Source: a bacterium | GTDB lineage: Bacteria > Patescibacteriota > Minisyncoccia > UBA6257 > 2-01-FULL-56-20 | Length of the DNA stretch: 64,000 bases | Direction: 5' to 3' | NCBI GenBank assembly: GCA_027310625.1 | Contig: DAIDAM010000003.1 | Coordinates: 2,239-66,238 of the forward strand | Shown: one piece after another, positions 3,556 through 36,448 of the stretch | Numbering within the stretch: the stretch's first letter is position 1 | Layout: every line of letters begins with the position of its first letter | Notes under the pieces: model-generated | What the model saw: the letters and a program-made list of their open reading frames with translations, nothing else | Databases searched by the model: none | Told to the model about the DNA's origin: nothing | Position numbers and translations under genes: made by a program

Positions 3556-3676
3556 CAGTATCTGCCAGTATCCATCAGTATCTACAAGTATCAACCAACA
3601 TCCACAAACATCTCGCCGATACCGATTGATACTCATCGATACTTATTGATGTTGTCTGAATTCGAAGAGTAAAAAC

Positions 3677-4174: not shown

Positions 4175-4211
4175 CTAATAACTGATGACTGATAACTGAT
4201 GACTTAAATTT

Positions 4212-5651
4212 ATGCCAAAAGCCGGCAAAATTCAGATAATAAAATACGCCCCGCCTCCGCCGGAACTGCCAGTTTACGGAAGAGTGAAAACAAGGGACGT
4301 TTCTTTCGTCGGAAGGACAAACTACGTCGCCGCTCTTGAAGAAAAAAGATTTATTTTCGGGATAAAACGCATAGACCGCAGGCGCCACCTTTACATAATA
4401 GGAAAAACCGGCGTGGGCAAATCGAAGATGCTCGAACTGCTCATGCGGCAGGACATCGCCTACGGATACGGCGCGTGCTTCATCGACCCTCACGGCGACG
4501 TTATTGATTCGCTCCTGGATTTCGTTCCGGAAGAAAGAATGGACGACGTGGTTATCATCGACCCCTCGGACGCGAAACACCCGGTATCTTTCAATCCGCT
4601 CGCAAACGTAATAGCCGATTTCAAGCACCAGTTGGCGCAGGACCTGATTGAAGTGATGCAAAAACAGTTCGGAGCGAACTGGACTCCGCGACTGGAGCAC
4701 GTTTTTCGCTTCAGCGTTCTTGCGCTTCTCGATTATCCGCACGCGACCATGCGCGGAATGATTTCGCTTTTGACGGACAGGAATTACCGACAAAAAGTTA
4801 TCGAATACATAGAAGACGACATGGTGCGGCGTTTCTGGGCTATTGAGTTCGCCGATTGGAGCGAAAAGTTCGACACCGACGCCATCATTCCGCTTGTCAA
4901 CAAACTCGGGCAATTCCTTTCCAACCCGTTGCTCCGCAACATTTTCGGTCAAAAGGAAAACAAAATTGATTTGGACCGCTTCATGAAAGAGAAAAAAATA
5001 ATTTTCATCAATCTTTCCAAGGGACGGCTGGGAGAAGAAAACTCAAGCTTTTTCGGCTCTATGTTTCTGACAAAAATAAAGCAGGCAGGGATGGCGAGGG
5101 CAAGAATGAGGCCCGAAGAACGGGAGGACTTTTATTTGTACGTGGATGAGTTTCATAATGTCGTGACGGACACTTTTGAAAACCTTCTTACCGAATCGAG
5201 AAAATACGGCCTCTGCATAACCATCGCGCATCAGTACTTCGGCCAGCTGACGTCAAGGGTGCAATCGGCGGCGCTGGGAAACTCCGGAAACATAATTGTT
5301 TTCCGCGTCGGCGGTGAGGACGCGGTGAAACTCAAGCCGGAAATGTCGCCCGTATTTGATACGAAAGATATGATAAATCTCGGCACGCAGGAATTTTACA
5401 TAAAGGAAACGATAGACGGCGAAACCTATGACCCGTTTTCCGCAGAAACGCTGAAAGTAATGCCCGCGCCGCATCCGTCTTACCGGGAACGAATCATTGA
5501 GCAGTCGCGCGCGAAGTATTCCATCACCGCCGACGCGGCGAAAAAACTTATAAAAGAGGAGGAGTCGTCAATACTCCGGCATTCCCGCGAAAAAGCGATT
5601 ATAGAGGGTTCAACAAGCGCGGCGGAAAAAGAACCGGAACCATTAATTTAG
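4212..5651 (+). CDS. FtsK/HerA/TraD(VirD4)-superfamily P-loop ATPase (DUF87-like), copy 1
   Basis: 479 aa. Walker A 'IIGKTGVGKS', Walker B 'FYLYVDEFHN', Arg-finger/ATQ-type motif 'RKYGLCITIAHQYFGQL'. Paralogous to 11901-13652, aligning from 'RRHLYIIGKTG' to 'IAHQY'. Confidence 0.8.
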   Translation: MPKAGKIQIIKYAPPPPELPVYGRVKTRDVSFVGRTNYVAALEEKRFIFGIKRIDRRRHLYIIGKTGVGKSKMLELLMRQDIAYGYGACFIDPHGDVIDSLLDFVPEERMDDVVIIDPSDAKHPVSFNPLANVIADFKHQLAQDLIEVMQKQFGANWTPRLEHVFRFSVLALLDYPHATMRGMISLLTDRNYRQKVIEYIEDDMVRRFWAIEFADWSEKFDTDAIIPLVNKLGQFLSNPLLRNIFGQKENKIDLDRFMKEKKIIFINLSKGRLGEENSSFFGSMFLTKIKQAGMARARMRPEEREDFYLYVDEFHNVVTDTFENLLTESRKYGLCITIAHQYFGQLTSRVQSAALGNSGNIIVFRVGGEDAVKLKPEMSPVFDTKDMINLGTQEFYIKETIDGETYDPFSAETLKVMPAPHPSYRERIIEQSRAKYSITADAAKKLIKEEESSILRHSREKAIIEGSTSAAEKEPEPLI

Positions 5652-8170: not shown

Positions 8171-8196
8171 TTCCACCATTCGCGCGAATGGTGGAA
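8171..8196. promoter_or_regulatory. 26-bp perfect palindrome TTCCACCATTCGCGCGAATGGTGGAA (operator variant, copy 2) upstream of Zn-ribbon gene A
   Basis: The sequence equals its own reverse complement. It shares the CCATTCGCGCGAATGG core with the copies at 7816 and 10078. Confidence 0.7.
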
Positions 8197-8249
8197 TGTG
8201 GAAAACAAATGGAAAACAAAAAACTTTTGAAACAATCATCAAAAGTAAA

Positions 8250-10064
8250 ATGAATTCCGAAACGAGAAATTGTCAAAACTGCAAGCAGAATTTCGTCATT
8301 GATTCCGATGATTTTGCTTTCTATGAAAAAATGAAAGTTCCGCCGCCGACGTTCTGCCCGGAATGCAGAATGATAAGGCGATTCGTCTGGCGCAACGAGC
8401 GGCATCTTTTCCGGAGAAAAGACGATGCGACCGGAATGGTTCGACCCGGTTCACCACCACAGGAAATTTTCTCGAGTTTTCCGCCGCAGGTAACTGTAAA
8501 GGTTTATAACCATGATTACTGGTGGAGCGACAACTGGGACCCGTCGGACTACGGACGCGATTACGACTTTTCCCGTCCGTTTTTTGAACAATTCAGAGAA
8601 CTGTTTTACAGCGTCCCGTTGCCCGCAAGGAGCGTTTTCGACACAACCAATTCTGAATATTGCGACAACGCTTCTTATGTAAAAAATTCGTATCTTTCTT
8701 TCAATGTCGGATACTTGGAAAACTCCGCTTACTGCGTTACAACCTTCTACAGCAAAGATAATTTAGACCTCTACGAAGCAAGACACGCCGAGCTATCTTA
8801 TGAAAATTACATGTCGGACGAGGCGTATCGCGTCTTTTTTTCCGTTAATATTGAGGATTCAACCGACATCTGGTTTTCGCGAAATCTTATGGGGTGCAAT
8901 AACTGCTTCGGATGCGTGAATCTGCGCAACAAGTCCTATTACATTTTCAACAAACCGTACTCCAAAGAGGATTACTTCGCCTACATAAAACAATTTGACC
9001 TCGGCTCTTACAAAACAAAAGAAGAATTGTTGAATCGCGCCCGCAAATTCTGGATGCAGTTTCCGATGCGCTTCACGCTCGCGATAAACGTCGTTAATTC
9101 CACAGGCGAACACATTGAGCACTCGCGGAACCTGAAAAGGTGCTATTCCATCCACAAAGGAGAAAATATGGCTTACTGTCAAATTTTTGAACCGCCGGGG
9201 GCCGATTCGTACGATTGCACGGTTTTTGGCTGGGGCGCATCGCGGAGTTATGAATCCCTTGTCTGCGGCGAAGAGTGCTATGATTTAAAGTTTTGCATTG
9301 AGTGCTGGCCGAGTTTAACCAATCTTGAATATTCCGCCCATTGTCATTCCTCCAATAATCTCTTCGGCTGTATTGGTTTGAAGAAAAAAGAATACTGCAT
9401 TTTGAACAAGCAATACTCGAAAGAAGAGTATTTCAAACTCCGCGAAAAAATAATACAACATATGAACGAAATGCCCTACATAGGCAAAATCCGAAATCAG
9501 AAATCCGAAATCCGAAACATTGAATACAAATACGGGGAATTTTTTCCGGCGGAGCTTTCTCCGTTCGCTTACAACGAAACACTTGCAAACGACTTCTTCC
9601 CGCTGACGAAAGAAGAAGCGGAGGCAAAAGGATTTCTCTGGCGCGAACAGGAACGGAGGGAATACGAAACGACGATAAACGCTTTGGATTTGCCGGACAA
9701 CATCAAAGACGTTCAGGATTCCATTCTCAAGGAAATCATAAAATGCGGCGACTGCGGACGGGCGTACAGAATAATTGAGATGGAGCTTCAGTTTTACCGC
9801 CGCATCCCGCTTCCGCTGCCGCGAAAATGTCCGGAGTGCAGATTCAAAGACAGATTCAAATTTGTAAACCCGCCGAAGTTGTGGAAAGGGAAATGTCAGT
9901 GCGCGGGAGAAACCAGTGACCAGCGACCAGAGACCAGTTACAGAAACGCTGTAAAGCATTTTCACGGAGCGGAACATTGCCCGAATGAATTTGAAACATC
10001 TTACCAACCCAACAGGCCGGAAATTGTTTACTGCGAAAGCTGTTATAACAGCGAGGTTGCTTGA
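8250..10064 (+). CDS. multi-zinc-ribbon protein A (N-terminal CxxC...CPxCR ribbon, internal Cys-containing repeats, C-terminal double ribbon)
   Basis: Start moved to 'MNSETRNCQNCKQNF' by analogy with paralog B ('MNNETKTCQNCKNQF'); the ORF-track start at 8196 lies inside the palindrome. Motifs 'KVPPPTFCPECRMIRR', 'NCFGCVNLRNKSYYIFNKPYSKEDYF', 'FGCIGLKKKEYCILNKQYSKEEYF', 'CGDCGRAYRIIEMELQFYRRIPLPLPRKCPECR'. Confidence 0.7.
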   Translation: MNSETRNCQNCKQNFVIDSDDFAFYEKMKVPPPTFCPECRMIRRFVWRNERHLFRRKDDATGMVRPGSPPQEIFSSFPPQVTVKVYNHDYWWSDNWDPSDYGRDYDFSRPFFEQFRELFYSVPLPARSVFDTTNSEYCDNASYVKNSYLSFNVGYLENSAYCVTTFYSKDNLDLYEARHAELSYENYMSDEAYRVFFSVNIEDSTDIWFSRNLMGCNNCFGCVNLRNKSYYIFNKPYSKEDYFAYIKQFDLGSYKTKEELLNRARKFWMQFPMRFTLAINVVNSTGEHIEHSRNLKRCYSIHKGENMAYCQIFEPPGADSYDCTVFGWGASRSYESLVCGEECYDLKFCIECWPSLTNLEYSAHCHSSNNLFGCIGLKKKEYCILNKQYSKEEYFKLREKIIQHMNEMPYIGKIRNQKSEIRNIEYKYGEFFPAELSPFAYNETLANDFFPLTKEEAEAKGFLWREQERREYETTINALDLPDNIKDVQDSILKEIIKCGDCGRAYRIIEMELQFYRRIPLPLPRKCPECRFKDRFKFVNPPKLWKGKCQCAGETSDQRPETSYRNAVKHFHGAEHCPNEFETSYQPNRPEIVYCESCYNSEVA

Positions 10065-11900: not shown

Positions 11901-13652
11901 ATGGCTCCGTTTTTCAAAACCGACAAGCAGAAAGACGTCGTTTATTTCGCGCGCACCGATTTCCGCAATCAGAATCGGCTTTTCGGCATTAAAAGAAAAG
12001 ACCGCCGCCAGCACACGTACGTCGTCGGCAAAACCGGCACCGGTAAAACCGCGCTCCTCAACAATTTAATTGTTCAAGACATCGCAAACGGCGAAGGCGT
12101 CTGCGTCATTGACCCGCACGGCGAGCTCGTCGAGGGATTGCTCGACAAAATTCCGGCCGAGCGGATAAACGACATCATCTATTTCAATCCCGCCGACCCC
12201 GACCACCACATCGGTTTCAACATTCTGGAATTGCCCGACCCGAAATACAAACATCTGGTCGCTTCCGGTTTGATGGGAATTTTCACCAAAATCTGGTCGA
12301 ATGTCTGGTCGGCAAGAATGGAATACATTTTGAATAACGCCGTTTTGGCGCTTCTCGAAAATCCCGGCTCGACTTTGCTCGGCATCAACCGCATTCTTGT
12401 CGACAAGGACTACCGACAGCAAATCATTTCCAACGTCAAAGACCCGGTGATCAAGGCGTTTTGGGTCAACGAATACGAACAGTGGCGCGACCAGTTCCGG
12501 AACGAAGCCATCGCCCCGATTCAAAACAAAGTCGGCCAGTTCCTTTCGACGGCGATGATTCGAAACATCGTCGGGCAGGAAAAAAGCACGATAAACATTT
12601 TCGATTTGATGAACGAGAAAAAAATACTTCTCGTGAATGTCTCCAAGGGAAGAATAGGGGAGGACAATTCGGCGCTTCTGGGCGCGATGCTCATCACCAA
12701 AATTCAGCTTTCGGCGATGGAACGCGTCAGGATTCCCGAAGACGAGCGTCCGGATTTTTATCTTTACGTCGACGAGTTCCAGAATTTCGCCACCGATTCT
12801 TTTGCCGGCATTTTGTCCGAAGCAAGAAAATATCGCCTGAATCTCATCGTCGCGCATCAGTACATCGGACAATTGGTCACCGATGTTTCCACAAAAGTCC
12901 GCGACGCGGTCTTCGGGAACGTTGGGACAATGATTCTTTTCAGAATAGGCGCGGCGGACGCGGAATTTCTGGAAACGGAATTTGAACCGGAATTCGCCAT
13001 TCAGGACATGGTCAATCTGCCGAACTACCGCATTTACCTGAAATTGATGGTTGACGGCATCACCTGCCGTCCGTTTTCCGCGCAAACTTTGCCGCCGTTC
13101 AATCTCGAATCATCGGAGGAAATAAAAGATAAAATCATCGCCGTTTCGAGGAAACTTCATTCAAAGCCGAGCGTGGAAGTGGAAAAGGCGATCAATCGCT
13201 GGAGCGGAATGATGGGCGAAACTGCGGCACAGCTGCCCGGAGCCAAAATGTTTCCGGCTGTTTGCTCGAACTGCGGTAAAAACACCATGGTGCCTTTCGA
13301 GCCGGCGAAGGGCAGACCGGTTTACTGCGACGATTGTTTTGAAAAGATACAATCGGGAAAACTCGCTCCCGTCGGCGGCGCAGGAAGACAGGGAAAACCA
13401 TCGGAAGAATTCTCGCGCGACCTTGCGGAACTCGGAATAGAATTCGAATTCAGAAAACCGCCGGCGAGACGTTTGGAAGAAGTGCCCTCGGCGATTCCCG
13501 TTGAAAGAAAAGGAATTTCGCTCGCGGAATTGAAGCCGCAGGAGGAGAAAGAGAGAAAAGAAAAGACGAAGCAGGCGGGCGAAAAACCGAAAGTGGATAT
13601 AAACGAACTCCGCGAAGCGATAAAAGAATCGCTTAAGAAAGCAGAGGGTTAA
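11901..13652 (+). CDS. FtsK/HerA/TraD(VirD4)-superfamily P-loop ATPase (DUF87-like), copy 2, with C-terminal zinc ribbon and K/E-rich tail
   Basis: 583 aa. Walker A 'YVVGKTGTGKT', Walker B 'FYLYVDEFQNF', 'RKYRLNLIVAHQYIGQL'. C-terminal 'CSNCGKNTMVPFEPAKGRPVYCDDCF' followed by 'KPQEEKERKEKTKQAGEKPK'. Confidence 0.8.
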   Translation: MAPFFKTDKQKDVVYFARTDFRNQNRLFGIKRKDRRQHTYVVGKTGTGKTALLNNLIVQDIANGEGVCVIDPHGELVEGLLDKIPAERINDIIYFNPADPDHHIGFNILELPDPKYKHLVASGLMGIFTKIWSNVWSARMEYILNNAVLALLENPGSTLLGINRILVDKDYRQQIISNVKDPVIKAFWVNEYEQWRDQFRNEAIAPIQNKVGQFLSTAMIRNIVGQEKSTINIFDLMNEKKILLVNVSKGRIGEDNSALLGAMLITKIQLSAMERVRIPEDERPDFYLYVDEFQNFATDSFAGILSEARKYRLNLIVAHQYIGQLVTDVSTKVRDAVFGNVGTMILFRIGAADAEFLETEFEPEFAIQDMVNLPNYRIYLKLMVDGITCRPFSAQTLPPFNLESSEEIKDKIIAVSRKLHSKPSVEVEKAINRWSGMMGETAAQLPGAKMFPAVCSNCGKNTMVPFEPAKGRPVYCDDCFEKIQSGKLAPVGGAGRQGKPSEEFSRDLAELGIEFEFRKPPARRLEEVPSAIPVERKGISLAELKPQEEKERKEKTKQAGEKPKVDINELREAIKESLKKAEG

Positions 13653-13717
13653 AAGTTATCAGACAACAGTAATCAGACATCAGAAGTAATTTTTAATTCT
13701 CTGATTTCTGATGACTA

Positions 13718-14443
13718 ATGATTAATCTCTTAACTATGCATTTTGATATTATTACTATCTTCCCGAAGATTTTCAATTCTTTTTTAAAGGAGTCGCTTAT
13801 TAAGCGCGCCATCAAAAAGAAAATCATCGAGGTAAAAATAACGAACCTCAGGAATTTTTCCGACGACAGAAAGCACAGGAAAATTGACGACCGTCCCTAC
13901 GGCGGGGGACCGGGAATGGTCTTACAAATTGGACCTATCTATCGCGCAGTCCAATTTGTAATTTCAAAGTTCTCCGCCAAAGGCGGATCCGCCTCCGGAG
14001 GAAAAGTTCAAAGTTCAAAAACTCGGACAATTCTTTTTTCAACGCGCGGCAGAAAATTTGACGCAAAAACGGCGAAGCGGCTTTCAAAATACGGTTCGCT
14101 TATTCTGATTTGCGGACGCTACGAGGGCGTTGACGAAAGGGTTGCGAAATACATCGCCGACGAAGAAATCTCCATCGGCGATTACGTTTTGAACGGCGGA
14201 GAAGTGGCGGCAATGGCGCTTATGGAAGCGGTAAGCAGATTTTTGCCGGGATTTCTCGGCAAAACGGAATCGCTTGAAGAAATAAAGGGTCATTACGCCA
14301 CTTACACCCGTCCTGCCGAATTCGTCCCCGACGTTTCTTCAAGAAAAAAATTTTTTCCGAGAACGCCGAGGAAGTGGAGCGTTCCGAGCGTTCTTATGTC
14401 GGGACACCATGAAAAAATAAACAAATTGAGAAAATCGCGGTAG
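13718..14443 (+). CDS. trmD: tRNA (guanine37-N1)-methyltransferase
   Basis: 'HFDIITIFP', 'DDRPYGGGPGMV', 'LICGRYEGVDERV', 'SIGDYVLNGGE'. The true start may be the Met at 13736 (MHFDII...). Confidence 0.9.
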   Translation: MINLLTMHFDIITIFPKIFNSFLKESLIKRAIKKKIIEVKITNLRNFSDDRKHRKIDDRPYGGGPGMVLQIGPIYRAVQFVISKFSAKGGSASGGKVQSSKTRTILFSTRGRKFDAKTAKRLSKYGSLILICGRYEGVDERVAKYIADEEISIGDYVLNGGEVAAMALMEAVSRFLPGFLGKTESLEEIKGHYATYTRPAEFVPDVSSRKKFFPRTPRKWSVPSVLMSGHHEKINKLRKSR

Positions 14444-20959: not shown

Positions 20960-22501
20960 ATGACAGCCACTCAAAAAAGAGGGGTACGTGTTCGTTTTGC
21001 TCCGTCGCCGACGGGGTTTCTGCACGTCGGCTCCGTAAGAACCGCACTCTTCAACTGGATTTTTGCAAAACAGAATAGCGGAAAATTTATTCTCAGAATC
21101 GAAGATACTGATAAGGAACGCTCAAAACCGGAATATGAAAAAAACATTCTTGAAAGTTTGAAATGGCTGGGTCTTGACTGGGATGAAGGACCCTCGCCCA
21201 ATGGCGCGCAGAATAACGCAGACGATACGCAGAATAACGCAGAAAAAAGTCAGCGTGAGTCAGCGTCAAGTCGGCGCAAGTCAGCGTATATTGGAGATTA
21301 TGGTCCTTATCGTCAGTCGGAAAGGATAAAAATTTACAGAAATTACATTGAACGTTTGATTGGCGAAGGAAGGGCTTATCGCTGCTTTTGCTCCAAAGAA
21401 CAGCTTGAATCAGACCGGCAAACGATGCTTGCCGAAGGTTTGCCTCCGAAATACGGCGGGCGATGCAGAAACATAAAAAAAGAAGACGGCGAAAAGAGAA
21501 TGAAAAACGGCGAAGCGTGCGTCATACGTTTCGTCGTTCCCGAAACGGATGTAGAATTCAACGATTTGGTCAGAGGGAATGTGAAATTCAGCGGCGAACT
21601 GATGGGGGACATGATAATCGCCAAAAGCGAGGATGAGCCGCTTTATAACTTCGCCGCAACGATAGACGACGAACTGATGGAAATAACCCACGTCATAAGG
21701 GCGGAAGAACACCTTTCAAACACGCCGAAACAAATATTTCTTCAGCAGGCGCTGAATTTCAGAGAGATTAAATACGCCCACATCCCTCTCATACTCAATC
21801 CCGACAGAAGCAAAATGTCCAAACGCTATCTTGAATCGTCGGTAAACGATTACCGCTCGGGAGGTTATCTGCCGGAAGCAATGCTGAATTTTCTTTCGCT
21901 TCTCGGATGGCATCCGAAAGAAGAAAAAGAAATTCTCGGCATTGACGAAATAATAAAAGAATTTGACATCAAGCGCGTGCAAAAAGCCGGAGCCGTTTTC
22001 AATATTGAAAAGCTGAACTGGATAAATTCCCAATACATAAAGAAGAAAACGAATACAGAGTTGGCGGCGCTTTTGAGAATTTTTCTTGAAAATAAAAATA
22101 TTGACGCGGAAGATGAATTTGTCGCAAAGGTCGCCGGCGCCGAGAAAGAGCGCGTAAAGACCATTGCCGAATTAGCCGAAGCCGCCGAGTTTTTTTTCAA
22201 ACTTCCCGATTACGGTCCGGAGCTTTTGACATGGAAAAATAGAACAGCCGCCGAGACGAAAAATGCAATAAATGAATCGCTTAAGATGTTGGATGAGATA
22301 CCGGAAGAAAAATTCGCGAGGGAAGAAATCGGGAACGCGCTGCAGCAATTGATAGAAAAAACGGGCAGGGGAGAGGTTCTGTGGCCAATCAGAGCCGCAC
22401 TTTCAGGGCAAAAAGCTTCGCCGGACCCCCTTGAAATAATGGGGATTTTAGGCAAAAAGGAAACGGAAAGGCGATTAAAAATCGCGATGAAAAAATTATA
22501 A
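20960..22501 (+). CDS. gltX: glutamyl-tRNA synthetase (non-discriminating likely), with ~28-aa low-complexity insertion
   Basis: 'RFAPSPTGFLHVGSVRTALFNW' (HIGH region) and 'KMSKR'. An insertion 'NGAQNNADDTQNNAEKSQRESASSRRKSAY' lies between the conserved 'WDEGP' and 'GDYGPYRQSER'. Confidence 0.9.
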   Translation: MTATQKRGVRVRFAPSPTGFLHVGSVRTALFNWIFAKQNSGKFILRIEDTDKERSKPEYEKNILESLKWLGLDWDEGPSPNGAQNNADDTQNNAEKSQRESASSRRKSAYIGDYGPYRQSERIKIYRNYIERLIGEGRAYRCFCSKEQLESDRQTMLAEGLPPKYGGRCRNIKKEDGEKRMKNGEACVIRFVVPETDVEFNDLVRGNVKFSGELMGDMIIAKSEDEPLYNFAATIDDELMEITHVIRAEEHLSNTPKQIFLQQALNFREIKYAHIPLILNPDRSKMSKRYLESSVNDYRSGGYLPEAMLNFLSLLGWHPKEEKEILGIDEIIKEFDIKRVQKAGAVFNIEKLNWINSQYIKKKTNTELAALLRIFLENKNIDAEDEFVAKVAGAEKERVKTIAELAEAAEFFFKLPDYGPELLTWKNRTAAETKNAINESLKMLDEIPEEKFAREEIGNALQQLIEKTGRGEVLWPIRAALSGQKASPDPLEIMGILGKKETERRLKIAMKKL

Positions 22502-25586: not shown

Positions 25587-26603
25587 ATGGCGAAGAAACA
25601 AAAAGAAAACCAATATCCCCTAGCAGATGTGCCATTCCTCTCAATAAGCCCGAAATCCGTTCATTTTATCGGCGTTCTGGGCATCGGCATAAGCTCCCTT
25701 GCCCAGTGGTTTATGGCCCGCCCTGAGCGCGGTCGAAGGGCTCAAAAATGGGCTGTTTCGGGGTCGGATACGGCAATTGGTCCTACCTATCAAATGCTCA
25801 AAAAAGCCGGTTTAAAAGCAAAAATTGGGCATAAAAGAGGCAATATTCCAGCAAAATGCGGTCTTGTTATATATAGCCGGGCGATAAAAAAGAATAACCC
25901 CGAACTTAAAGAAGCAAAAAGAATGGACATACCCGCGCTCTCCTATCCGCAGGCCGTCGGGAAGCTGACAAAGTTCTACAAAACGATTTGCATTTCCGGC
26001 ATGCACGGAAAGAGCACTACAACGGCGCTGACTGCGTTTCTTTTAATTAATGCGGGGTTGGATCCGACGGTAATCATCGGCACGCGCCTGAAGGAATTCG
26101 GATACAGAAATTTCCGCAATGGAAAAAACGAATTTCTTGTTTTAGAGGCGGACGAATACAAAGACGCTTTTTTGAACTACTCCCCTGCTTTTGCGATAGT
26201 CACCAATATAGACAAAGAACATCTGGACTATTTCAAAAACATAAACGAAATAAAAAATTCTTTTCTGAATTTTTTCCGCCGCGTAAAAAAAGGCGGAATA
26301 ATTATATTAAACCGCGACGATGCAATGCTTTATTCCCTCAAACGAAAAATAGATAAATTAAGCAAAATCAGAAACATAAAAACAAAATGGTATTCACTGC
26401 GAGACAAAGAAGCGGCGGAAGTAAAAAAGTATATAAAGTTGCCGGGAATGCATAATGTATCAAATGCTCTAGCGGTATATTGTTTGTCAAAGTTTCTCGG
26501 AATAAGCGGAAAAACCTTCTTAAAAACCATCTCCGAATACGCCGGTTCGTGGAGAAGAATGGAATACCGCGGCAAGTATCAAGTATCAAGTATCAGTTTA
26601 TGA
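25587..26603 (+). CDS. murC: UDP-N-acetylmuramate--L-alanine ligase, N-terminal and central domains (reading frame broken at 3' end)
   Basis: 'HFIGVLGIGISSLAQWF', 'CISGMHGKSTTTAL', 'LVLEADEY'. The ORF terminates inside the tandem heptamer AAGTATC x3 at 26582-26602. Confidence 0.8.
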   Translation: MAKKQKENQYPLADVPFLSISPKSVHFIGVLGIGISSLAQWFMARPERGRRAQKWAVSGSDTAIGPTYQMLKKAGLKAKIGHKRGNIPAKCGLVIYSRAIKKNNPELKEAKRMDIPALSYPQAVGKLTKFYKTICISGMHGKSTTTALTAFLLINAGLDPTVIIGTRLKEFGYRNFRNGKNEFLVLEADEYKDAFLNYSPAFAIVTNIDKEHLDYFKNINEIKNSFLNFFRRVKKGGIIILNRDDAMLYSLKRKIDKLSKIRNIKTKWYSLRDKEAAEVKKYIKLPGMHNVSNALAVYCLSKFLGISGKTFLKTISEYAGSWRRMEYRGKYQVSSISL

Positions 26604-27093
26604 CGATTACGCTCATCATCCGACGGAGATAAAAGCGACGCTTGCCGCGTTCAGGGAAAAGTTTCCTAAAAGCGAGATTGTCTGCGTTTTCCAGCCGCAT
26701 CAGGCGGAGCGGCTCAAGCTTTTATTCAAAGAATTTCGTAACGCCTTTGACGGCGCTGATAAAACAATAATTATGCCGATTTACAAAGTCGCCGGCCGCG
26801 AATCGTCGGTTAACTCCGAATATGACGCCGCGGCGCTCGTAAAATCAATCCAAAAAATGAAACCGCCGCGGAAAGTTTTTTATCTGAAAGACCCGAAAAA
26901 CTTGAAAAAGGCGCTAAAAATTCTCTTGTCCGATTACTCGCTCCCCTGCCCCCTTCCGCGTAAGTCGGCGTTAAGTCAGCGTGAGTCTGCGTCAGGTCCG
27001 CGTCAGTCCGCGGTCGTGATAATGATGGGCGCCGGCGACATTGTAAATTACACGGATTCACTCATTAAAAAAGACAGGGCCAGCAAGCGCTAG
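26596..27093 (+). pseudogene. murC: murC C-terminal domain in shifted frame (frameshift at AAGTATC x3; alternatively a sequencing or population variant)
   Basis: The frame gives 'VYDDYAHHPTEIKATLAAF...VCVFQPHQ...IMMGAGDI', the canonical MurC C-terminal motifs. Deleting one 7-bp unit restores a single ORF ('...RGKYQVSVYDDYAHHPTEI'). Confidence 0.7.
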
Positions 27094-27345: not shown

Positions 27346-27516
27346 TAGAACCACCTCCTTTCACGCCCGAGTTAATACAAAAAATATCACAGGAAATATT
27401 TTCTTGCAACACGATTGTAAATTACCTGACTTTGCTGATAAAATGACACAGCAGTAATCAGCAATTAGACATCAGTAATCAGTTGTCGGCAGTCGGTTCC
27501 TAATGTCTAATGACTA

Positions 27517-28326
27517 ATGTCAATTGTCTATCTTACTTATATGTCCGAATACTATTCAACGCCCGAAAGTTTCAAGGAAGCCAACGGATATATTATTGAG
27601 GGCATTTGGTATCCGCGAGTAACAAAAATCGTTTCCATCAAGGCGAAGCCCGCTCTTTACCGCTTTTACGCCGAGCAGGAAAGCTTTGAAGCGAGCAGAA
27701 AAATAACGGAGCAATCGGCGGCCGAGGGAACGCTCGTCCACGAAGCGGCGGAGGCGATTCTCCTCGGACAAGCTCCGGAAATTGACGAGTCAATAAAGCC
27801 GGCCATAAAGGCGTTCCAAAAATTTCTGGAAGAGAAAAATATTCAGACCTCTCCGGAATACGTCGAGCGGCAAATTTTTCATCCCGGACACAGATACGCC
27901 GGAACAATAGACGTAATGGCGCTGATTGACGGAAAATTCGGCGTCCTCGACATAAAAACTTCACAGGGAATTTATCGCGATTACAATTTGCAAACGGCGG
28001 CGTATATGGGCGCGCTCAAAGACCAGTTTCAGCATTTGCAGACAAGATGGATTTTGAGAATTGATCAGATTCAAACCTGTCTCCGATGCGGCGCCACAAG
28101 GAGAACAAAAGGCGGACGCGAAAAGATAAGTTTGTGGAACAAAAACGGCGCGATGAACAAAGAAAAGATGAAAAAATGCGAACACGAGTGGTCAGAGGTT
28201 CGGGGAGAAATAGAATTCAAAGAATTCCCCTACTGGGAAAGCGATTTCGAAGCGTTCTTGGGGGCGAAAAAATTGTGGGAATGGGAAAATGAGAATTGGT
28301 TGCGGAAAATAGGATATTTAACTTAA
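27517..28326 (+). CDS. PD-(D/E)xK nuclease superfamily protein (Cas4/RecB-nuclease-like fold) with C-terminal Cys cluster
   Basis: 'GTIDVMALIDGKFGVLDIKTSQ' gives D...D-x-K after 'LVHEAAE'. C-terminal 'CLRCG...CEHEW'. Not adjacent to any cas genes. Confidence 0.55.
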   Translation: MSIVYLTYMSEYYSTPESFKEANGYIIEGIWYPRVTKIVSIKAKPALYRFYAEQESFEASRKITEQSAAEGTLVHEAAEAILLGQAPEIDESIKPAIKAFQKFLEEKNIQTSPEYVERQIFHPGHRYAGTIDVMALIDGKFGVLDIKTSQGIYRDYNLQTAAYMGALKDQFQHLQTRWILRIDQIQTCLRCGATRRTKGGREKISLWNKNGAMNKEKMKKCEHEWSEVRGEIEFKEFPYWESDFEAFLGAKKLWEWENENWLRKIGYLT

Positions 28327-29767: not shown

Positions 29768-30241
29768 TTACGAATGGAAAAGTTTTTTACACTCGTCTCG
29801 CATAAAGTCTTTGACGATTTCAATTTTTCCCGGCGATTTCTTTACAATTTCCTTTGAAGATATTTTTATCGTGCGCCAACTATATCTCTGATTGCCGTGA
29901 TTTTTGCCATGGTCGTTCATGTCAGAAACCCTGCTGCCATAAACGATACCATTCAATTTCGCCCATACCGCGGCAGAAGAGCACATCGGGCAAGGTTCGT
30001 GAGTAGTATACAACACACAATCACTCATATGCCTCCGTTTAAGAACTTTACTAGCTTGCAGAATCGCCAATGTTTCTGCGTGGCCGATTGGATTTTCATC
30101 CCTAATGCTGCGATTGCTCGCCGATGAAATTATCCTGTTTCCTCTCGCCATCACGGCGCCGATTGCGTAATCGCCCATCCGCTTCGCGGCTTTAGCCTCG
30201 CGAATCGCTCTTTCCATAAACTTTTTCTGCGGTTTCAGCAT
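29768..30241 (-). CDS. CMP/dCMP-type zinc deaminase (TadA/guanine deaminase-like)
   Basis: 'HAE' and 'PCPMC' zinc-binding motifs in 'PIGHAETLAILQAS...HEPCPMCSSA'. Confidence 0.75.
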   Translation of the reverse strand: MLKPQKKFMERAIREAKAAKRMGDYAIGAVMARGNRIISSASNRSIRDENPIGHAETLAILQASKVLKRRHMSDCVLYTTHEPCPMCSSAAVWAKLNGIVYGSRVSDMNDHGKNHGNQRYSWRTIKISSKEIVKKSPGKIEIVKDFMRDECKKLFHS

Positions 30242-30274
30242 AGTTATCAGTTATTAGTTATTGGTTATTGGTCA

Positions 30275-30994
30275 TCAAAATTTTAAGTACTTCTCCCATT
30301 TTTCATAAAGTTCTTTCGTCGCGTTTAAATCGCCGGCGTTATAGCGCGCTATTTCGGCGTATTTTTTTTCTTTGAAAAGTTTTCCGACATCGTCGCCGGT
30401 TATGCCGCCTGCCTTCGGGCTTGTTATGCCGAAAGCCCTCGTCCAAAGGTGGAGATTGCCTTTTCTCCGCACCGCGCCGTAAAAAGAAAGCTGGTCCAAA
30501 AGGTCAACATGGACGGCGTCGAAATTCTGCTGCGAAAAATATCTTCCGCGCATCAAATCTTTTGCGGGCCTGATGCTGTGCACCGCGGAACGGACCATCA
30601 AAAAAGGAATATCGAACGCCCTGCCGTTGAAAGTTATGAAGTAATTGTAATTCTTCGCGATATCCCAGAAATTCCGGAGCATCTCCTTTTCGGAACATTT
30701 TTTAAACGAAAAATTGTTTTCTCTGAAATCGCCGGCGTCGCTCTCCGGCGCCTGAAAATAAACCGCTCCTTCGTTTTTTTCACATTCAAGAACTCCTATC
30801 GCAACAACTTCCGCCGTAAGCGGCGAAAAGCCGAGACGATTTTTCAACTCGCTCAACGCTTCATCATAATCGGCATTGCTCTCCGATTCTTTCCTTATCC
30901 AGCGCGTGAGATTTTCCCTTGTCGCCTCATCAAGAGAATCAAAATCTTCCCCAACTGTTTCTATGTCCAAAACGAGTTTCTTAAAGGTTGACAT
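30275..30994 (-). CDS. RNase H-like 3'-5' exonuclease (PolB-exonuclease-like, YprB/RNase_H_2 family)
   Basis: 'LVLDIETVGEDF' (Exo I, DxE), 'FITFNGRAFDIPFL' (Exo II), 'YNAGDLNATKELY' (Exo III, YxxxD). Confidence 0.7.
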   Translation of the reverse strand: MSTFKKLVLDIETVGEDFDSLDEATRENLTRWIRKESESNADYDEALSELKNRLGFSPLTAEVVAIGVLECEKNEGAVYFQAPESDAGDFRENNFSFKKCSEKEMLRNFWDIAKNYNYFITFNGRAFDIPFLMVRSAVHSIRPAKDLMRGRYFSQQNFDAVHVDLLDQLSFYGAVRRKGNLHLWTRAFGITSPKAGGITGDDVGKLFKEKKYAEIARYNAGDLNATKELYEKWEKYLKF

Positions 30995-31120
30995 TCGTCT
31001 GAATTATATACTATAATCTTTTTTCATAAGTATCCATTAGTATCAACAAATATCGATGAGTATCATCTTTGATATTCGTAGATACTCGCTTCGCGATATT
31101 GATGGAAATTATCTCAAACT

Positions 31121-31854: not shown

Positions 31855-31957
31855 AATTTTGTTTGAAAATCCTAAATTCTAAATCTGAAATCCGAAACAA
31901 ATTCTAAACACTAAATTCCAAATTGCAAACGTTTGGGATTTGGAATTTGTGATTTGT

Positions 31958-33199
31958 TTAGGATTTAGTGCTTCGAATTTCGGATTTGATAACTTCCAGT
32001 GCCTTGTCCAGCTGGGGGTCGCGTTTGTTTTTAACGTCGTCTTCCGTCATTTTAACCTCGAAATCGGGTGTCAAGCCGCCGTTTTCAAGCGACTTTCCGC
32101 TCGGCAAAACCCAGCGCGCTATCGTAAGCTTTACAGTAGAGCCCTCCGACAGCGGTATAACCTGCTGAACCGTTCCCTTGCCGAAACTTTTTTCGCCAAC
32201 CAGTTTCACTCTCCTGTTGTCGCGGAGCGCTCCGGCGATGATTTCAGAGGCCGAGGCGGAACCGCCGTTTATCAGGACAACAACCGGAACATCGGAAAGC
32301 GCTTCGTTGCCGACAGCGCGGAAATCTTTCTTGCCTTCCTCTTTTGACTCTTCACTCACTATCAAAGCTCCTCTCTTCAAAAACCATCCGCCCAAATCAA
32401 CGGCGACTTCAAGATATCCGCCGGGGTTGTTGCGAAGATCCAAAATTACTCCTTTCGCGCCTTCGGAAGCAAGTTTGTAAACAGCATTGTAGAAAAGATA
32501 ACCGGTGTTCGCGTTGAAACTGTAGAGCTGAATGTACGCCACATTTCCGTCTTTCATTGAAAAATCGAGGGTCGGCACCGTTATCGTGTCGCGGATTATT
32601 TCAAAGTCCTTCGATTTCTCCCAGCCCTCGCGGATTATTGAAAGCGTCACCTTCGTTCCTTGCGGACCGCGTATCAGTCGCACCGCCTCATCAACCGACA
32701 TTCCTTCCGTTGAGGTTGAATTTATCGCAAGTATGATGTCGCCCGCCGTTATCCCGGCCCTCATCGCGGGGGTGTCCTTAAGCGGAGCGACTACGACGAT
32801 GTTGTTTTTCTTTGAACCGATTTCGGCTCCTATGCCGCCGAAGCTTCCCTGAACGTCCTCCTGGAATTTTTTGTTGTCTTTCGGGGAGAGGAAAACGGAA
32901 TAAGGGTCTTTCAGCGATTGAACAAGACCGCTTATTGCTCCGTAGACCTTGTCCTGGGGCGATATTTTGTCGGCTCCGATGTAGCTTTTATTTATCACGT
33001 CCCACGTCTGCCAGAAAGTGCCGAAATTCACGGAGGACGGTTGTCCCGCGGACGTATTGCTGACTTCGGTAACGGTTATGTTTTGCGGGTACATTTTCCC
33101 CAAACTGAAACCGGCGGCAAAACCGCTTCCCAAAAGAGCGGCTCCGGCAATAACCCCCAATCCCCACCAGATCGCTTTGTCCCTTAAAAATTTCTTCAT
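31958..33199 (-). CDS. ctpA: carboxyl-terminal processing protease (S41 family)
   Basis: N-terminal anchor, PDZ region, and 'VVLINGGSASASEIIAGAL' with the catalytic Ser/Lys arrangement. Confidence 0.85.
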   Translation of the reverse strand: MKKFLRDKAIWWGLGVIAGAALLGSGFAAGFSLGKMYPQNITVTEVSNTSAGQPSSVNFGTFWQTWDVINKSYIGADKISPQDKVYGAISGLVQSLKDPYSVFLSPKDNKKFQEDVQGSFGGIGAEIGSKKNNIVVVAPLKDTPAMRAGITAGDIILAINSTSTEGMSVDEAVRLIRGPQGTKVTLSIIREGWEKSKDFEIIRDTITVPTLDFSMKDGNVAYIQLYSFNANTGYLFYNAVYKLASEGAKGVILDLRNNPGGYLEVAVDLGGWFLKRGALIVSEESKEEGKKDFRAVGNEALSDVPVVVLINGGSASASEIIAGALRDNRRVKLVGEKSFGKGTVQQVIPLSEGSTVKLTIARWVLPSGKSLENGGLTPDFEVKMTEDDVKNKRDPQLDKALEVIKSEIRSTKS

Positions 33200-34516: not shown

Positions 34517-34565
34517 TGTTTTATACTTCTGATTACTGATGTCTAGTTACTGATTACTGATCATC

Positions 34566-35524: not shown

Positions 35525-36448
35525 ATGATTCTTAATTCTCGATTTGTTTTCTTCGGCACGCCGGAATTTGCCGCAACAATCCTTGAAAAGCTGATAAGTT
35601 CCGGATTTGTTCCGGAGGCGGTTGTCTGCAACCCCGACCGCCCCGTCGGCAGGAAGAAGGTTATCACTCCCCCGCCGGTGAAACTGCTAATTATGAAGCA
35701 GGAAGCAAGAATCAAGAAGCAAGTTAAAATTTTTCAGCCAGAAAAATTAGATAAACAATTTCTTGATTCATTATTCTTGATTCATGATTCTTTTGATTTT
35801 TTTGTCGTTGCCGCCTATTCCCAAATTCTCCCTAAAGAAATAATCGAAATACCGCGGCTCGGAACAATCGGCGTCCATCCTTCGCTTCTGCCGAAATACC
35901 GCGGCGCCTCCCCCATCCAAGGCGCGATACTGAACGGAGAAAAGGAAACAGGCGTAACGCTTTATTTGATGGACGAGAAAACGGACCATGGGAAAATAGT
36001 ATCAAGTATCAGGTATCAAGTATCAGGGAATGAGAATTACAAAACATTGGAAAAAGAACTTGCGGAACTCGCGGGAAATCTGCTTGTGGAAACGTTGCCG
36101 AAATTCATCAAAGGAGAAATAAAACCCGTGCCGCAGGACGAATCAAAGGCGACCTACACGAAAAAATTCACGACTGAAGACGCGTTCATTGATGAAAAAA
36201 CTCTGGAAGAAGCGCTAAACGGAGAAAATGAAGAAACGGCTGAAAAAATCTATCGCAAAATTCTGGCTCTCAATCCCGAGCCGGGAACATGGACGTATGC
36301 GCGAGCACTGGAACATTCCAACGTTCTTGAGAATGTTGGAATGTCGTCTTCCGGCAAACGGATTAAGATTTTGGAGGCAAAAATTGAAAACGGAAAACTT
36401 GTTCTGAAAAAAATCCAGATTGAAGGAGAAAAACCCAAAGCCGTTTAG
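35525..36448 (+). CDS. fmt: methionyl-tRNA formyltransferase
   Basis: 'VFFGTPEFAATILEKL', 'NPDRPVGRKK', 'GVHPSLLPKYRGASPIQ'. Contains short in-frame repeat words (aagaatcaagaagcaag; agtatcaagtatcaggtatcaagtatcag). Confidence 0.9.
   Translation: MILNSRFVFFGTPEFAATILEKLISSGFVPEAVVCNPDRPVGRKKVITPPPVKLLIMKQEARIKKQVKIFQPEKLDKQFLDSLFLIHDSFDFFVVAAYSQILPKEIIEIPRLGTIGVHPSLLPKYRGASPIQGAILNGEKETGVTLYLMDEKTDHGKIVSSIRYQVSGNENYKTLEKELAELAGNLLVETLPKFIKGEIKPVPQDESKATYTKKFTTEDAFIDEKTLEEALNGENEETAEKIYRKILALNPEPGTWTYARALEHSNVLENVGMSSSGKRIKILEAKIENGKLVLKKIQIEGEKPKAV

What the first reader, a model, noticed from the sequence alone, without database searches (positions are those of the whole stretch)
21196..21297. 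Same decamer tandem repeat inserted in-frame into two essential genes (gltX and murC), both encoding ...SQRESAS...
gltX carries aaagtcagcgtgagtcagcgtcaagtcggcgcaagtcagcgta between the conserved WDEGP and GDYGPYRQSER, adding ~28 aa (…AEKSQRESASSRRKSAY). It is preceded by a duplicated cgcagaataacgcaga word. The murC C-terminal domain (26950-27015) carries cgtaagtcggcgttaagtcagcgtgagtctgcgtcaggtccgcgtcagtccgcg between ALKILL and VIMMGAGDI (…RKSALSQRESASGPRQSAV). Both are ~10-bp AGTC(A/G)GCGTN tandem arrays in the same translational phase. This recalls Rickettsia palindromic elements, which invade ORFs in-frame. It would be a mobile or self-propagating simple-repeat that survives inside coding sequence.
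Basis: seen in the sequence. Interest (0 to 1): 0.7.

Follow-up and report, generated by a model that had tools for sequence, protein, structure and literature searches.

The report
In-frame palindromic repeat elements in CPR genes
The repeats inside gltX and murC are real and appear to be copies of a family of small hairpin-forming DNA elements, sometimes carrying a nuclease gene, that sit in frame inside many essential genes of tiny "candidate phyla radiation" bacteria, much as Rickettsia palindromic elements do in Rickettsia.

Summary
gltX (Candidatus Liptonbacteria/Paceibacterota) has a 96-nt in-frame insert between WDEGP and IGDYGPYRQSER. murC has a 58-nt array of the same AGTCNGCGT unit in the same reading phases.

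The insert is a hairpin whose arms are tandem arrays (cores CGCNGA / TCNGCG, spacing alternating 10/11 nt, A-rich tip). It is not specific to this genome. About 20 of 120 GluRS orthologs carry such a hairpin at the same site, in a patchy distribution, with arm cores that co-vary between lineages. Very close relatives show deletion scars. MurC orthologs carry arrays at the same site.

A metagenome scan found the same architecture in frame in about 17 further protein families (class I aaRS, RecG, LepA, GyrA, UvrC, enolase, GAPDH, TrmD, SecD/F and others). In LepA of several CPR lineages the two arms flank a complete GxxExxY (PD-(D/E)XK) protein. Stand-alone GxxExxY genes have similar arms. AlphaFold predicts the gltX insert to be a disordered loop.

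Best reading: cargo-less copies of an RPE-like / IVS-like element family. Mobility is inferred, not shown. I found no published description.

The parts
20960..22501 (+). gltX (glutamate--tRNA ligase), the host gene of the hairpin insert
   Evidence: ORF of 513 aa. It has a 100% match to P0001 with PF00749 + PF19269, and its orthologs are named glutamate--tRNA ligase from Candidatus Liptonbacteria / Paceibacterota.
21194..21289 (+). In-frame insert (residues 79-110, SPNGAQNNADDTQNNAEKSQRESASSRRKSAY): a complete cargo-less hairpin element
   Evidence: Absent from the closest uninserted orthologs, which read GPDKGGPFG. It folds as a periodic hairpin at -35.5 kcal/mol, z = -3.06. AlphaFold pLDDT is below 50 for residues 78-112, with confident flanks.
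21207..21243 (+). Left arm: 4 units with core CGCAGA (GCGCAGAA, ACGCAGAC, ACGCAGAA, ACGCAGAA), spacing 10/11/10; encodes AQNNADDTQNNAE
   Evidence: TRF reports period 10 x3.7; chain of 4 cores; arm cores listed.
21244..21249 (+). A-rich tip of the hairpin (GAAAAAAG context)
   Evidence: Loop of the predicted fold. The same GGAAAA-type tip is seen in L005, L100 and L159, and at both cargo junctions of L210.
21250..21286 (+). Right arm: 4 units with core TCRGCG (GTCAGCGT x3, GTCGGCGC), spacing 10/11/10; encodes SQRESASSRRKSA
25587..27093 (+). murC (UDP-N-acetylmuramate--L-alanine ligase), the host gene; frameshifted in this assembly (frame 0 to 26603, frame +1 afterwards)
   Evidence: ORFs; three-frame translation; alignment to five syntenic MurC orthologs.
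26955..27012 (+). Single-arm (right-arm type) array: 6 TCNGCG cores, spacing alternating 11/10; encodes RKSALSQRESASGPRQSA
   Evidence: There is no complementary left arm and no hairpin (z = -0.56). Orthologs L002, L003 and L004 have arrays of the same core at the same site.
26573..26595 (+). Heptamer array (C)AAGTATC x3.3 at the murC frame break. This is a related but distinct array class, not part of the TCNGCG element.
   Evidence: Every MurC ortholog examined has a different heptamer array at this site. The frame is restored with 2.3 or 5.3 copies, and 5.3 copies would give the ortholog length of 12 aa.

Best explanation
The gltX insert is a complete, cargo-less copy, and the murC array a one-armed remnant, of a family of small palindromic DNA elements found in CPR/Patescibacteria genomes. 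Each element has a left arm of tandem (A)CGC-N-GA(C/A/T) units and a right arm of tandem (G/A/T)TC-N-GCG(T) units. Spacing alternates 10 and 11 nt (21 nt = 7 codons), and the arms meet at an A-rich tip. Full-length relatives carry a GxxExxY (PD-(D/E)XK superfamily) ORF between the arms. The elements enter or persist at the DNA level inside genes. The copies that survive are stop-free, in frame, and located in permissive surface loops, where the left arm is translated as T-Q-x-N-A-D / A-D-x-R-G and the right arm as S-x-R / x-S-A hydrophilic linkers. The arms stay complementary while their sequence drifts. Cargo can be lost by deletion between the GGAAAA repeats at the arm-cargo junctions. The whole insert can be lost by deletion between short flanking direct repeats. 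Shown here: the anatomy, the in-frame state, the predicted disorder, the same-site patchy distribution, arm covariation, many unrelated host genes, and the cargo association. Inferred: that the family is or was mobile, that the GxxExxY nuclease drives spread, the direction of the cargo-bearing to cargo-less derivation, and that the insert is neutral for GluRS and MurC.
For: 1. Hairpin anatomy and significance.
2. Seven GluRS loci at DNA level: every inserted ortholog has a tandem-arm hairpin, and the cores co-vary. L005 pairs CGCGGAC with GTCCGCG (-56 kcal/mol), L001 pairs ACGCAGAT with ATCTGCGT (-53), L007 pairs ACGCAGAC with GTCCGCGT, and L006 has no insert.
3. Patchy distribution on a 120-sequence GluRS tree. 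P0018 carries the hairpin while its closely clustering relatives (very similar by eye; identity not computed) read WDEG-PYRQSE. That reading is exactly what deletion between the GGACCC...GGACCC repeats flanking the L007 insert would give.
4. The same core arrays occur at the same murC site in L002-L004.
5. The metagenome scan finds the architecture in frame in class I aaRS, Toprim/primase-like, RecG, LepA, CCA/polyA polymerase, SecD/F, GyrA-C, P-type ATPase, class V aminotransferase, GAPDH, enolase, UvrC, TrmD, PheRS-beta and others. About 23 distinct hairpins fold at z from -2 to -15.
6. L132 LepA reads left arm + full-length GxxExxY (TIGR04256 positions 1-116 of 116, E = 2.5e-34) + right arm, all in frame, and the arms pair at -72 kcal/mol.
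7. The closest cargo relatives are again LepA fusions from Candidatus Harrisonbacteria and Kaiserbacteria. P0124 and P0127 read through into ILNLIDTPGHVDF.
8. Stand-alone GxxExxY genes, including a Liptonbacteria one (L208), have inverted tandem-array arms and arm-encoded termini.
9. Cargo-removed elements found through protein homology align to gltX hairpins found through GluRS homology at 61-75% identity, z = 4.7-9.7.
10. The insert is predicted to be disordered.
Against: No transposition or homing event, target-site duplication, or empty/filled polymorphism within one population was observed. Within about 170 kb of this clade the TCNGCG arrays occur only at the gltX and murC sites. That looks more like two old, vertically inherited inserts than an actively spreading element. 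The metagenome hits were selected by the core motif, so their shared core is partly by construction. The taxonomy of most of those contigs is unknown; only the LepA cases are named CPR. The same loops also carry heptamer arrays of unrelated units in other lineages, which this model does not explain. GxxExxY has no demonstrated activity, and the window itself contains no GxxExxY gene.
Confidence: 0.6

Rival explanations
1. In-situ simple-sequence expansion. These genomes have a very high rate of short tandem duplication (units of 7 and 10-11 nt). Arrays arise and turn over independently wherever selection tolerates them, in intergenic DNA and in permissive protein loops. On this view the gltX and murC arrays are local products of slippage and template switching, not copies of an element. 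The shared core would reflect convergent constraints: stop-free, hydrophilic in several frames, and GC-rich enough to pair.
For: The window has 54 tandem arrays against 12.5 +/- 4.7 in shuffles, and period 7 is about 19-fold enriched. The murC mid-site carries a different heptamer array in each of six lineages. The gltX site and the murC C-terminal site carry heptamer-encoded inserts in some lineages. Heptamer-rich genomes are a known phenomenon (Mrazek 2007 as cited in PMC4679880). Within this clade the TCNGCG arrays are confined to two sites.
Against: The same core, the same 21-nt super-period and the same A-rich tip recur in about 19 unrelated host genes and in non-coding copies. The arms bracket a specific protein family. 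Elements found independently align at 61-75% identity. Independent de novo arrays, like the heptamers, show unrelated units.
Confidence: 0.22
2. A selected function in the host genes. The hairpin would be a conserved mRNA or DNA structure (for example a translational pause, a processing or stability signal, or a protein-binding site), or the Arg/Ser-rich peptide would be a functional appendage of GluRS or MurC.
For: The arms co-vary between lineages while the encoded peptide changes. The insert persists at the same site across GluRS lineages that are only about 55% identical. The right arm encodes a basic peptide in a tRNA-binding enzyme.
Against: The nearest relatives (P0006-P0014) lack the insert, and others have deleted it together with the native loop. 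L003 and L004 retain only one arm. The murC copy has no hairpin. The insert is predicted to be disordered. The same element sits in many functionally unrelated proteins and in intergenic DNA. No Rfam family matches.
Confidence: 0.1
3. Assembly or sequencing artefact: mis-assembled low-complexity reads, or chimeric joins at repeats.
For: The source is a metagenome-assembled genome. murC carries a frameshift inside a heptamer array, and read support could not be examined.
Against: The inserts keep the reading frame. The identical GluRS protein is on record from NCBI and Logan. Homologous inserts at the same sites occur in at least seven independent assemblies.
Confidence: 0.02

Closest known systems
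Rickettsia palindromic elements (RPE; Ogata et al. 2000/2002, as summarised in the MITE review PMC10969869)
   Same: Both are short palindromic repeats found many times inside unrelated housekeeping genes. Both are inserted in frame and translated as an extra peptide compatible with protein fold and function, in small, compact genomes of host-dependent bacteria.
   Different: The taxon differs (CPR rather than Rickettsia). The size is about 60-130 nt rather than about 150 bp. The arms here are tandem arrays of 10/11-nt units with a 21-nt super-period, not a unique palindromic consensus. The encoded peptide is predicted to be disordered. Some copies carry a GxxExxY ORF, whereas as far as I recall no autonomous RPE partner is known. 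Sequence similarity to RPE consensus sequences was not tested.
23S rRNA intervening sequences (IVS), e.g. Coxiella burnetii (PMC4990558), Leptospira, Salmonella
   Same: Both have a stem formed by terminal inverted repeats, with an optional small ORF in the loop. The Coxiella IVS also contains tandem heptamers whose copy number varies by strain. Both occupy the same conserved host sites with a sporadic distribution, and both show ORF decay that leaves the stem.
   Different: IVS lie in rRNA and are excised by RNase III, and their ORF is the S23p four-helix-bundle protein. The elements here lie in protein-coding genes, stay in frame and stop-free (so they are presumably translated), and carry GxxExxY instead. 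Excision was not testable.
Heptamer simple-sequence repeats: TAACTGA repeats (MacGregor 2015, PMC4679880), long simple sequence repeats (Mrazek 2007, cited there), cyanobacterial STRR / small dispersed repeats (Elhai 2008, from memory)
   Same: The window is rich in heptamer arrays, several of them TAACTGA-like and placed immediately upstream of start codons, as in Beggiatoaceae. A few arrays lie inside ORFs.
   Different: The gltX and murC arrays have 10/11-nt units, a conserved core, an inverted partner arm, and a cargo-bearing relative. The heptamer arrays have unrelated units and are mostly direct and unstructured.
MITEs / REP-type elements and in-frame MITE insertions
   Same: Both are small non-autonomous palindromic repeats, possibly derived from a larger element by loss of the internal gene. 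Both can create in-frame fusions.
   Different: No target-site duplication was recognised. The putative autonomous partner encodes a PD-(D/E)XK-fold GxxExxY protein, not a known transposase or RAYT. Copies are concentrated in coding loops rather than extragenic DNA.
Inteins / free-standing homing endonuclease insertions
   Same: Both involve in-frame insertion of a nuclease-fold domain at the same conserved site of essential genes, with a sporadic phylogenetic distribution (LepA cases).
   Different: Pfam detects no Hint/splicing domain, only PF13366. The insert is flanked by inverted tandem arrays. No evidence of protein splicing or homing was found.

Membership tests
Rickettsia palindromic elements (RPE) | Palindromic repeat inserted in frame in unrelated protein-coding genes | tested here: met
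   Hairpin folds; in-frame copies in about 19 Pfam-distinct host families.
Rickettsia palindromic elements (RPE) | Belongs to one of the RPE sequence families of Rickettsia genomes | tested here: not met
   The host is Candidatus Liptonbacteria / Paceibacterota. The unit structure (10/11-nt tandem arms) differs from the ~150-bp RPE consensus described in PMC10969869. No direct alignment to RPE sequences was made.
Rickettsia palindromic elements (RPE) | The inserted peptide lies where it does not disturb the host fold (surface) | tested here: met
   AlphaFold model of the window GluRS: pLDDT below 50 for residues 78-112 only, with confident flanks. This is a prediction, not an experiment.
23S rRNA intervening sequence (IVS) | Located in 23S rRNA helices (9/25/45) | tested here: not met
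   The elements lie in protein-coding genes. Rfam finds only two tRNAs in the window.
23S rRNA intervening sequence (IVS) | Terminal inverted repeats form a stem, with an optional ORF in the loop | tested here: met
   L132, L210, L211 and L208 show arm-ORF-arm. The window copy is a stem only.
23S rRNA intervening sequence (IVS) | Excised from the transcript by RNase III | not testable with these tools
   No transcript data. The consistent in-frame, stop-free state of coding copies argues that they are translated rather than removed.
23S rRNA intervening sequence (IVS) | The loop ORF is the S23p four-helix-bundle protein | tested here: not met
   The cargo is GxxExxY (TIGR04256 / PF13366).
GxxExxY-associated tandem-arm element (informal grouping defined here) | Inverted arms made of tandem 10/11-nt units with complementary cores and an A-rich tip | tested here: met
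   Window 21207-21286. Its alignment to the cargo-removed L211 and L210 arms gives 73% and 67% identity, z = 7.3 and 4.7.
GxxExxY-associated tandem-arm element (informal grouping defined here) | GxxExxY ORF between the arms | tested here: not met
   There is no GxxExxY-like sequence anywhere in the window (tblastn). The window copies are cargo-less.
MITE | Terminal inverted repeats plus target-site duplication, and a cognate transposase-encoding element | tested here: inconclusive
   Inverted arms are present. Only short flanking direct repeats were seen (GGACCC in L007), which may be host sequence. No transposase partner was found, and the cargo is a nuclease-fold protein of unknown activity.
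Simple sequence repeat / contingency locus | Tandem direct repeats longer than chance, with copy-number change by slippage | tested here: inconclusive
   Arrays far exceed chance. Unit numbers differ between orthologs. A copy-number frameshift is seen only at the heptamer array in murC. No population data are available.
Intein | Hint/splicing domain with conserved junction residues | tested here: not met
   Pfam finds only PF13366 in the L132 insert. There are no Hint-domain hits.

The most novel reading that the evidence does not exclude
CPR/Patescibacteria harbour a previously undescribed class of mobile element: an IVS-like cassette (tandem-array inverted arms plus a GxxExxY PD-(D/E)XK nuclease) that homes into conserved loops of essential protein genes. 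It is tolerated because its arms are built on a 7-codon period and translate as flexible linkers, so the nuclease is expressed as an internal domain of the host protein without any splicing. The short hairpins in gltX, murC and many other genes would be the decayed stems left behind.
Probability: 0.3. Interest if true: 0.8.

Novelty: new variant of a known kind. Interest (0 to 1): 0.62.

Why it matters
If this holds, CPR bacteria, which have very small genomes with little non-coding DNA, carry a selfish-element family that lives inside essential genes by being translatable. That would be a second, independent case of the RPE strategy, in a different branch of the bacterial tree.

It would matter in four ways:
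- It would give a first genomic context, and a testable role, for the widespread GxxExxY proteins of unknown function.
- It would explain part of the unexplained 'CPR-specific insertions' and length variation in conserved proteins.
- It would connect rRNA intervening sequences with protein-gene insertions.
- Practically, such inserts disturb gene calling (LepA is annotated as 'GxxExxY protein, partial') and can mislead alignments and phylogenies built from marker genes.

Tried and rejected
- A protein-database search with the insert peptide from P0048 returned only 2 word-sharing candidates and no hits, so it was uninformative.
It was useful only as a 1.03-Mb negative control.
- A look-up of the truncated MurC ORF in other assemblies found no record, so the reproducibility of the frameshift is unknown.
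- Rfam gave no family at any array.
- I considered CRISPR and TIGR arrays and rejected them from my own knowledge of their layout. The units here are contiguous 7-11-nt repeats without spacers, whereas TIGR arrays have units of about 36 nt as I recall; the TIGR paper surfaced but I did not read it.
- I considered programmed frameshifting at murC but found no support. The site is a plain heptamer array, and orthologs are in frame.
- I tested whether the 10/11 alternation is a coding-frame filter. It is not: it is equally present in non-coding copies.
- I tested for depletion of sense-strand T at the core centre as a sign of translational selection. An asymmetry exists (p = 0.009) but is confounded by the A-rich sense-strand bias, so I treat it as a hint only.
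- Literature searches for CPR/Patescibacteria palindromic in-gene repeats and for GxxExxY found no description.
Full report
**1. The observation**

The window comes from a CPR bacterium. The gltX product (20960..22501, 513 aa) is identical to P0001, and its relatives are named glutamate--tRNA ligase of Candidatus Liptonbacteria / Paceibacterota.

In gltX, residues 79-110 (SPNGAQNNADDTQNNAEKSQRESASSRRKSAY, about 21194-21289) lie between WDEGP and IGDYGPYRQSER. In murC an array at 26955-27012 encodes RKSALSQRESASGPRQSA between ...ALKILL and VIMMGAGDI. Both arrays use the unit AGTC-N-GCGT with start-to-start spacing alternating 10 and 11 nt. Both are read in the same two phases (S-x-R and x-S-A).

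This is far beyond chance. AGTCRGCGT with up to one mismatch occurs 40 times against 19.7 +/- 4.7 in shuffles. Chains of three or more TCNGCG or CGCNGA cores at 10/11-nt spacing occur only at these two sites in the window, never in 200 shuffles. Only one such chain occurs in 1.03 Mb of other bacterial gltX neighbourhoods.

**2.

The 'duplicated cgcagaataacgcaga word' (21207-21243, four CGCAGA cores) is the inverted partner of the right array (21250-21286, four TCRGCG cores). The insert folds into a long periodic hairpin in which each left unit pairs with a right unit across small internal loops, closed by an A-rich tip. The energy is -35.5 kcal/mol against -25.1 +/- 3.4 for shuffles, z = -3.1; for the arms alone z = -4.3. 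The murC array has only the right-arm type and does not fold better than shuffles (z = -0.56).

murC is also frameshifted in this assembly. The frame changes at a separate heptamer array (AAGTATC x3.3, 26573-26595), and the conserved VYDDYAHHPTE continues in frame +1.

**3. Comparison with orthologs: GluRS**

An alignment of 35 orthologs, later extended to 120, shows that the segment between WDEG and PYRQSE is hypervariable. Sixty-one sequences have no insert (GPDIGGEYG-like, or even WDEG-PYRQSE). About 20 have a hairpin-type insert with left-arm peptides (TQINAD, ADKRGLNAD) followed by right-arm peptides (NLRKSAY, SPRESAY). Forty have other inserts, several with a 7-aa periodicity that suggests an in-frame heptamer DNA array (ERQETRDKRQD, KGQGTRDKGQG, EFSISNFQFSNK); this was inferred from the peptides, not checked on DNA. 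On a neighbour-joining tree built with the insert masked, the hairpin type is scattered over many clades.

DNA was obtained for seven orthologs. Every inserted one has a tandem-arm hairpin, and the arm cores differ between lineages while staying complementary:
- L005: CGCGGAC / GTCCGCG, -56 kcal/mol.
- L001: ACGCAGAT / ATCTGCGT, -53.
- L002: -38.
- L007: ACGCAGAC / GTCCGCGT, -35.5.
- L003 and L004 keep only a left arm.
- L006 has no insert.

P0018 (L007) has the hairpin. On the tree it clusters with relatives (P0083, P0087, P0097-P0101) that look very similar by eye, though I did not compute their identity, and that read WDEG-PYRQSE. In L007 the insert is bracketed by GGACCC...GGACCC, and deletion between those repeats yields exactly that reading. 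These alleles are therefore best read as scars of loss.

**4. Comparison with orthologs: MurC**

Synteny (ftsW-murG-gltX-M23-...-murC) allowed five MurC orthologs to be read. At the C-terminal site, L002, L003 and L004 have TCNGCGT arrays encoding RKSA/SQR peptides. L005 has a heptamer array (CTCGTGT) there instead. L006 has a non-repetitive segment of similar length.

At the mid site (EYRG...VYDDYAHHP) every lineage has a different heptamer array of 4-5 copies: CATGTCG, AAGTTMA, CAAYTAC, AAATTGA, AATTCNG, and AAGTATC in the window. The window copy is in frame only with 2.3 or 5.3 copies. With 5.3 copies it would give the 12-aa length seen in orthologs, so the assembly probably represents a two-unit contraction. 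Whether that contraction is real or an artefact is unknown.

**5. Is it confined to two genes?**

Within about 170 kb of this clade the TCNGCG arrays occur only at the gltX and murC sites. High-GC hits look like chance. Low-GC contigs, however, carry 67 arrays, 26 of them inside ORFs of at least 250 aa, encoding the same peptide types.

Pfam identifies the hosts as follows:
- a class I aaRS (two hairpins)
- a Toprim/primase-like protein
- RecG
- LepA
- a CCA-adding / poly(A) polymerase family enzyme
- SecD/F
- the GyrA C-terminal domain
- a P-type ATPase
- an LTD protein
- an HD-associated protein
- a class V aminotransferase (two hairpins)
- GAPDH
- enolase
- UvrC
- TrmD
- a PheRS-beta fragment
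- a PGA_cap protein

About 23 distinct left+right hairpins fold at z between -2 and -15. Adjacent spacings sum to 21 in 57 of 72 coding and 15 of 16 non-coding cases, so the 10/11 alternation is a property of the element rather than only a reading-frame filter.

**6. The cargo**

In L132, LepA is interrupted between ...VRMNW and HILNLIDTPGHVDF by three parts in frame: a left arm (ACGCGGA-type x4), a complete GxxExxY protein (PF13366; TIGR04256 positions 1-116 of 116, E = 2.5e-34), and a right arm (GTCCGCGT x4). The arms pair at -72 kcal/mol when joined.

The closest relatives of that cargo are again LepA fusions, from Candidatus Harrisonbacteria and Kaiserbacteria. P0124 and P0127 read through arm-cargo-arm into YILNLIDTPGHVDF. 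L210 has one in-frame TAA after the right arm. L211 is in frame up to a scaffold gap. Their arm cores co-vary: GCGGAC / GTCCGCG in L210, and ACGCAGAA / TTCTGCGT in L211.

A stand-alone GxxExxY gene from a Liptonbacteria assembly (L208) is bracketed by (TGCGAAA)n and (TTTCGCA)n, with its ATG inside the left arm. Other GxxExxY genes (L154, L144) are likewise bracketed. Many stand-alone GxxExxY proteins begin with ...NADKRR-LLYEDL and end with ...QRKSA-type peptides.

Elements found through cargo homology (L210, L211), with the cargo removed, align to gltX hairpins found through GluRS homology at 61-75% identity, z = 4.7-9.7. The window's hairpin against the L211 arms gives 73%, z = 7.3. GGAAAA motifs at both arm-cargo junctions of L210 match the tip of the cargo-less hairpins. 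That is consistent with cargo loss by deletion, or with cargo insertion at the tip; this step is inference.

**7. Effect on the host protein**

An AlphaFold model of the window GluRS, built with the 35-sequence alignment (mean pLDDT 79), has pLDDT below 50 for residues 78-112, which is the insert. The flanks are confident. This agrees with a disordered surface loop of the Rossmann-fold domain.

In coding copies the sense strand is asymmetric at the core centre. Left arms have A 28, G 36, C 3, T 1. Right arms have A 23, T 26, C 32, G 5. Overall A against T gives p = 0.009. This could reflect avoidance of Leu codons or simply the A-rich sense strand, so I treat it only as a hint.

**8. Interpretation**

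The best-supported reading (about 0.6) is that the gltX insert is a cargo-less copy, and the murC array a one-armed remnant, of a family of palindromic tandem-arm elements associated with GxxExxY genes. These elements would be tolerated in frame in permissive loops, kept palindromic while drifting, and lost by deletion. Functionally they behave like Rickettsia palindromic elements. Architecturally they resemble 23S rRNA intervening sequences, which have a stem of inverted repeats, tandem heptamers, and an ORF in the loop (PMC4990558). They are a member of neither family.

The main rival (about 0.2) is in-situ array generation in tolerant loops. The heptamer arrays support it, and the shared core, shared tip and cargo association argue against it. 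A selected structural or peptide function in GluRS and MurC (about 0.1) is unlikely given the losses and the many unrelated hosts. An assembly artefact is very unlikely. Mobility and the role of GxxExxY remain inferred.

**9. Context in the window**

The window has 54 tandem arrays against 12.5 +/- 4.7 expected. Period 7 accounts for 26 rows against 1.4 in shuffles. The arrays fall into two classes:
- Hairpins with tandem-repeat arms of other cores: AGTATC/GATACT at 3553-3665 and 31020-31115; heptamer arms at 13650-13722, 31862-31966 and 35690-35800. Their z values run from -2.8 to -5.5.
- Unstructured TAACTGA-like direct heptamer arrays immediately upstream of start codons, for example 4171-4204 before the ATG at 4212 (MFE 0). 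These match the repeats described in Beggiatoaceae, cyanobacteria and Bacteroidetes (PMC4679880).

**10. Novelty**

Searches of the held literature found no description of in-gene palindromic elements in CPR/Patescibacteria, or of repeat-flanked GxxExxY genes. I rate this as a new variant of a known kind (in-frame palindromic selfish repeats). One caveat: annotation-database notes on TIGR04256, which I could not consult, may already mention repeat flanks.

Noticed in passing
window 26573-26595 (murC 25587..27093): murC is frameshifted at a heptamer array (AAGTATC x3.3). The frame is restored with 2.3 or 5.3 copies, and 5.3 copies would match the ortholog length. This could be a real contraction, population heterogeneity or an assembly error.
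   Followed up: partly
murC mid site: window 26573-26595; L002 15655-15685; L003 16801-16829; L004 13848-13875; L005 14530-14561; L006 16657-16687: Every MurC ortholog has a different heptamer tandem array (4-5 copies) encoding the segment between EYRG and VYDDYAHHP. The site is conserved but the units are unrelated.
   Followed up: partly
window 4171-4204, 34529-34561, 30241-30277 (-), 56445-56490 (-), 27452-27530: TAACTGA-like direct heptamer arrays lie immediately upstream of start codons in the sense orientation and are unstructured (MFE 0 for 4165-4212). They match the repeats described by MacGregor 2015 in Beggiatoaceae, cyanobacteria and Bacteroidetes, which I have not seen reported for CPR.
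   Followed up: partly
window 3553-3665, 31020-31115, 1-40: Intergenic hairpins whose arms are 10-nt tandem arrays with core AGTATC on the left and GATACT on the right (z = -3.4 and -4.3). The copy at 1-40 is cut off by the window edge. The architecture matches the gltX element but the core differs.
   Followed up: partly
window 13650-13722, 31862-31966, 35690-35800, 53495-53640: Hairpins with heptamer tandem arms: ATCAGAN/CTGATNN, AAATYCN/TTTGGRA, GAAGCAA/TTCTTGA, GAGACCA/CTGGTYN. The last spans the 5' end of the minus-strand ORF 52121-53626. ORF 35525-36448 contains several arrays and may not be a real gene.
   Followed up: partly
window 9487-9517, 9908-9937 (ORF 8196-10064); 62403-62443: Heptamer arrays (AAATCCG; CAGNGAC family) lie inside or at the end of long ORFs. 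The CAGAGAC/CAGCGAC unit recurs at 9908, 53495 and 62403.
   Followed up: no
L117, L120, L124 (5 copies), L128 (2), L130, L131, L152, L182: A separate repeated family in the metagenome hits: three GTCTGCGNNN units followed by GGTTAA/GCTAATTAA, next to a GC-rich terminator-like hairpin. In L182 two copies in direct orientation flank a GxxExxY gene. It looks like the ends or junctions of another cassette-type element.
   Followed up: no
L100 3338-7084: A class I aminoacyl-tRNA synthetase ORF of 1249 aa contains a His_Phos_1 domain (aa 520-701) inside the catalytic domain, in addition to two hairpin inserts (aa 761-784 and 904-931).
   Followed up: no
L210 3001-5238: LepA carrying the arm-GxxExxY-arm insert has a single in-frame TAA between the right arm and ILNLIDTPGH. 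Gene callers split it into two genes. It may be a split gene, a pseudogene or a case of readthrough.
   Followed up: no
L005 9144-9473: A Y1_Tnp (IS200/IS605-type, PF01797) gene lies between murG and gltX in one relative. It is absent from the window, and no link to the hairpins was examined.
   Followed up: no
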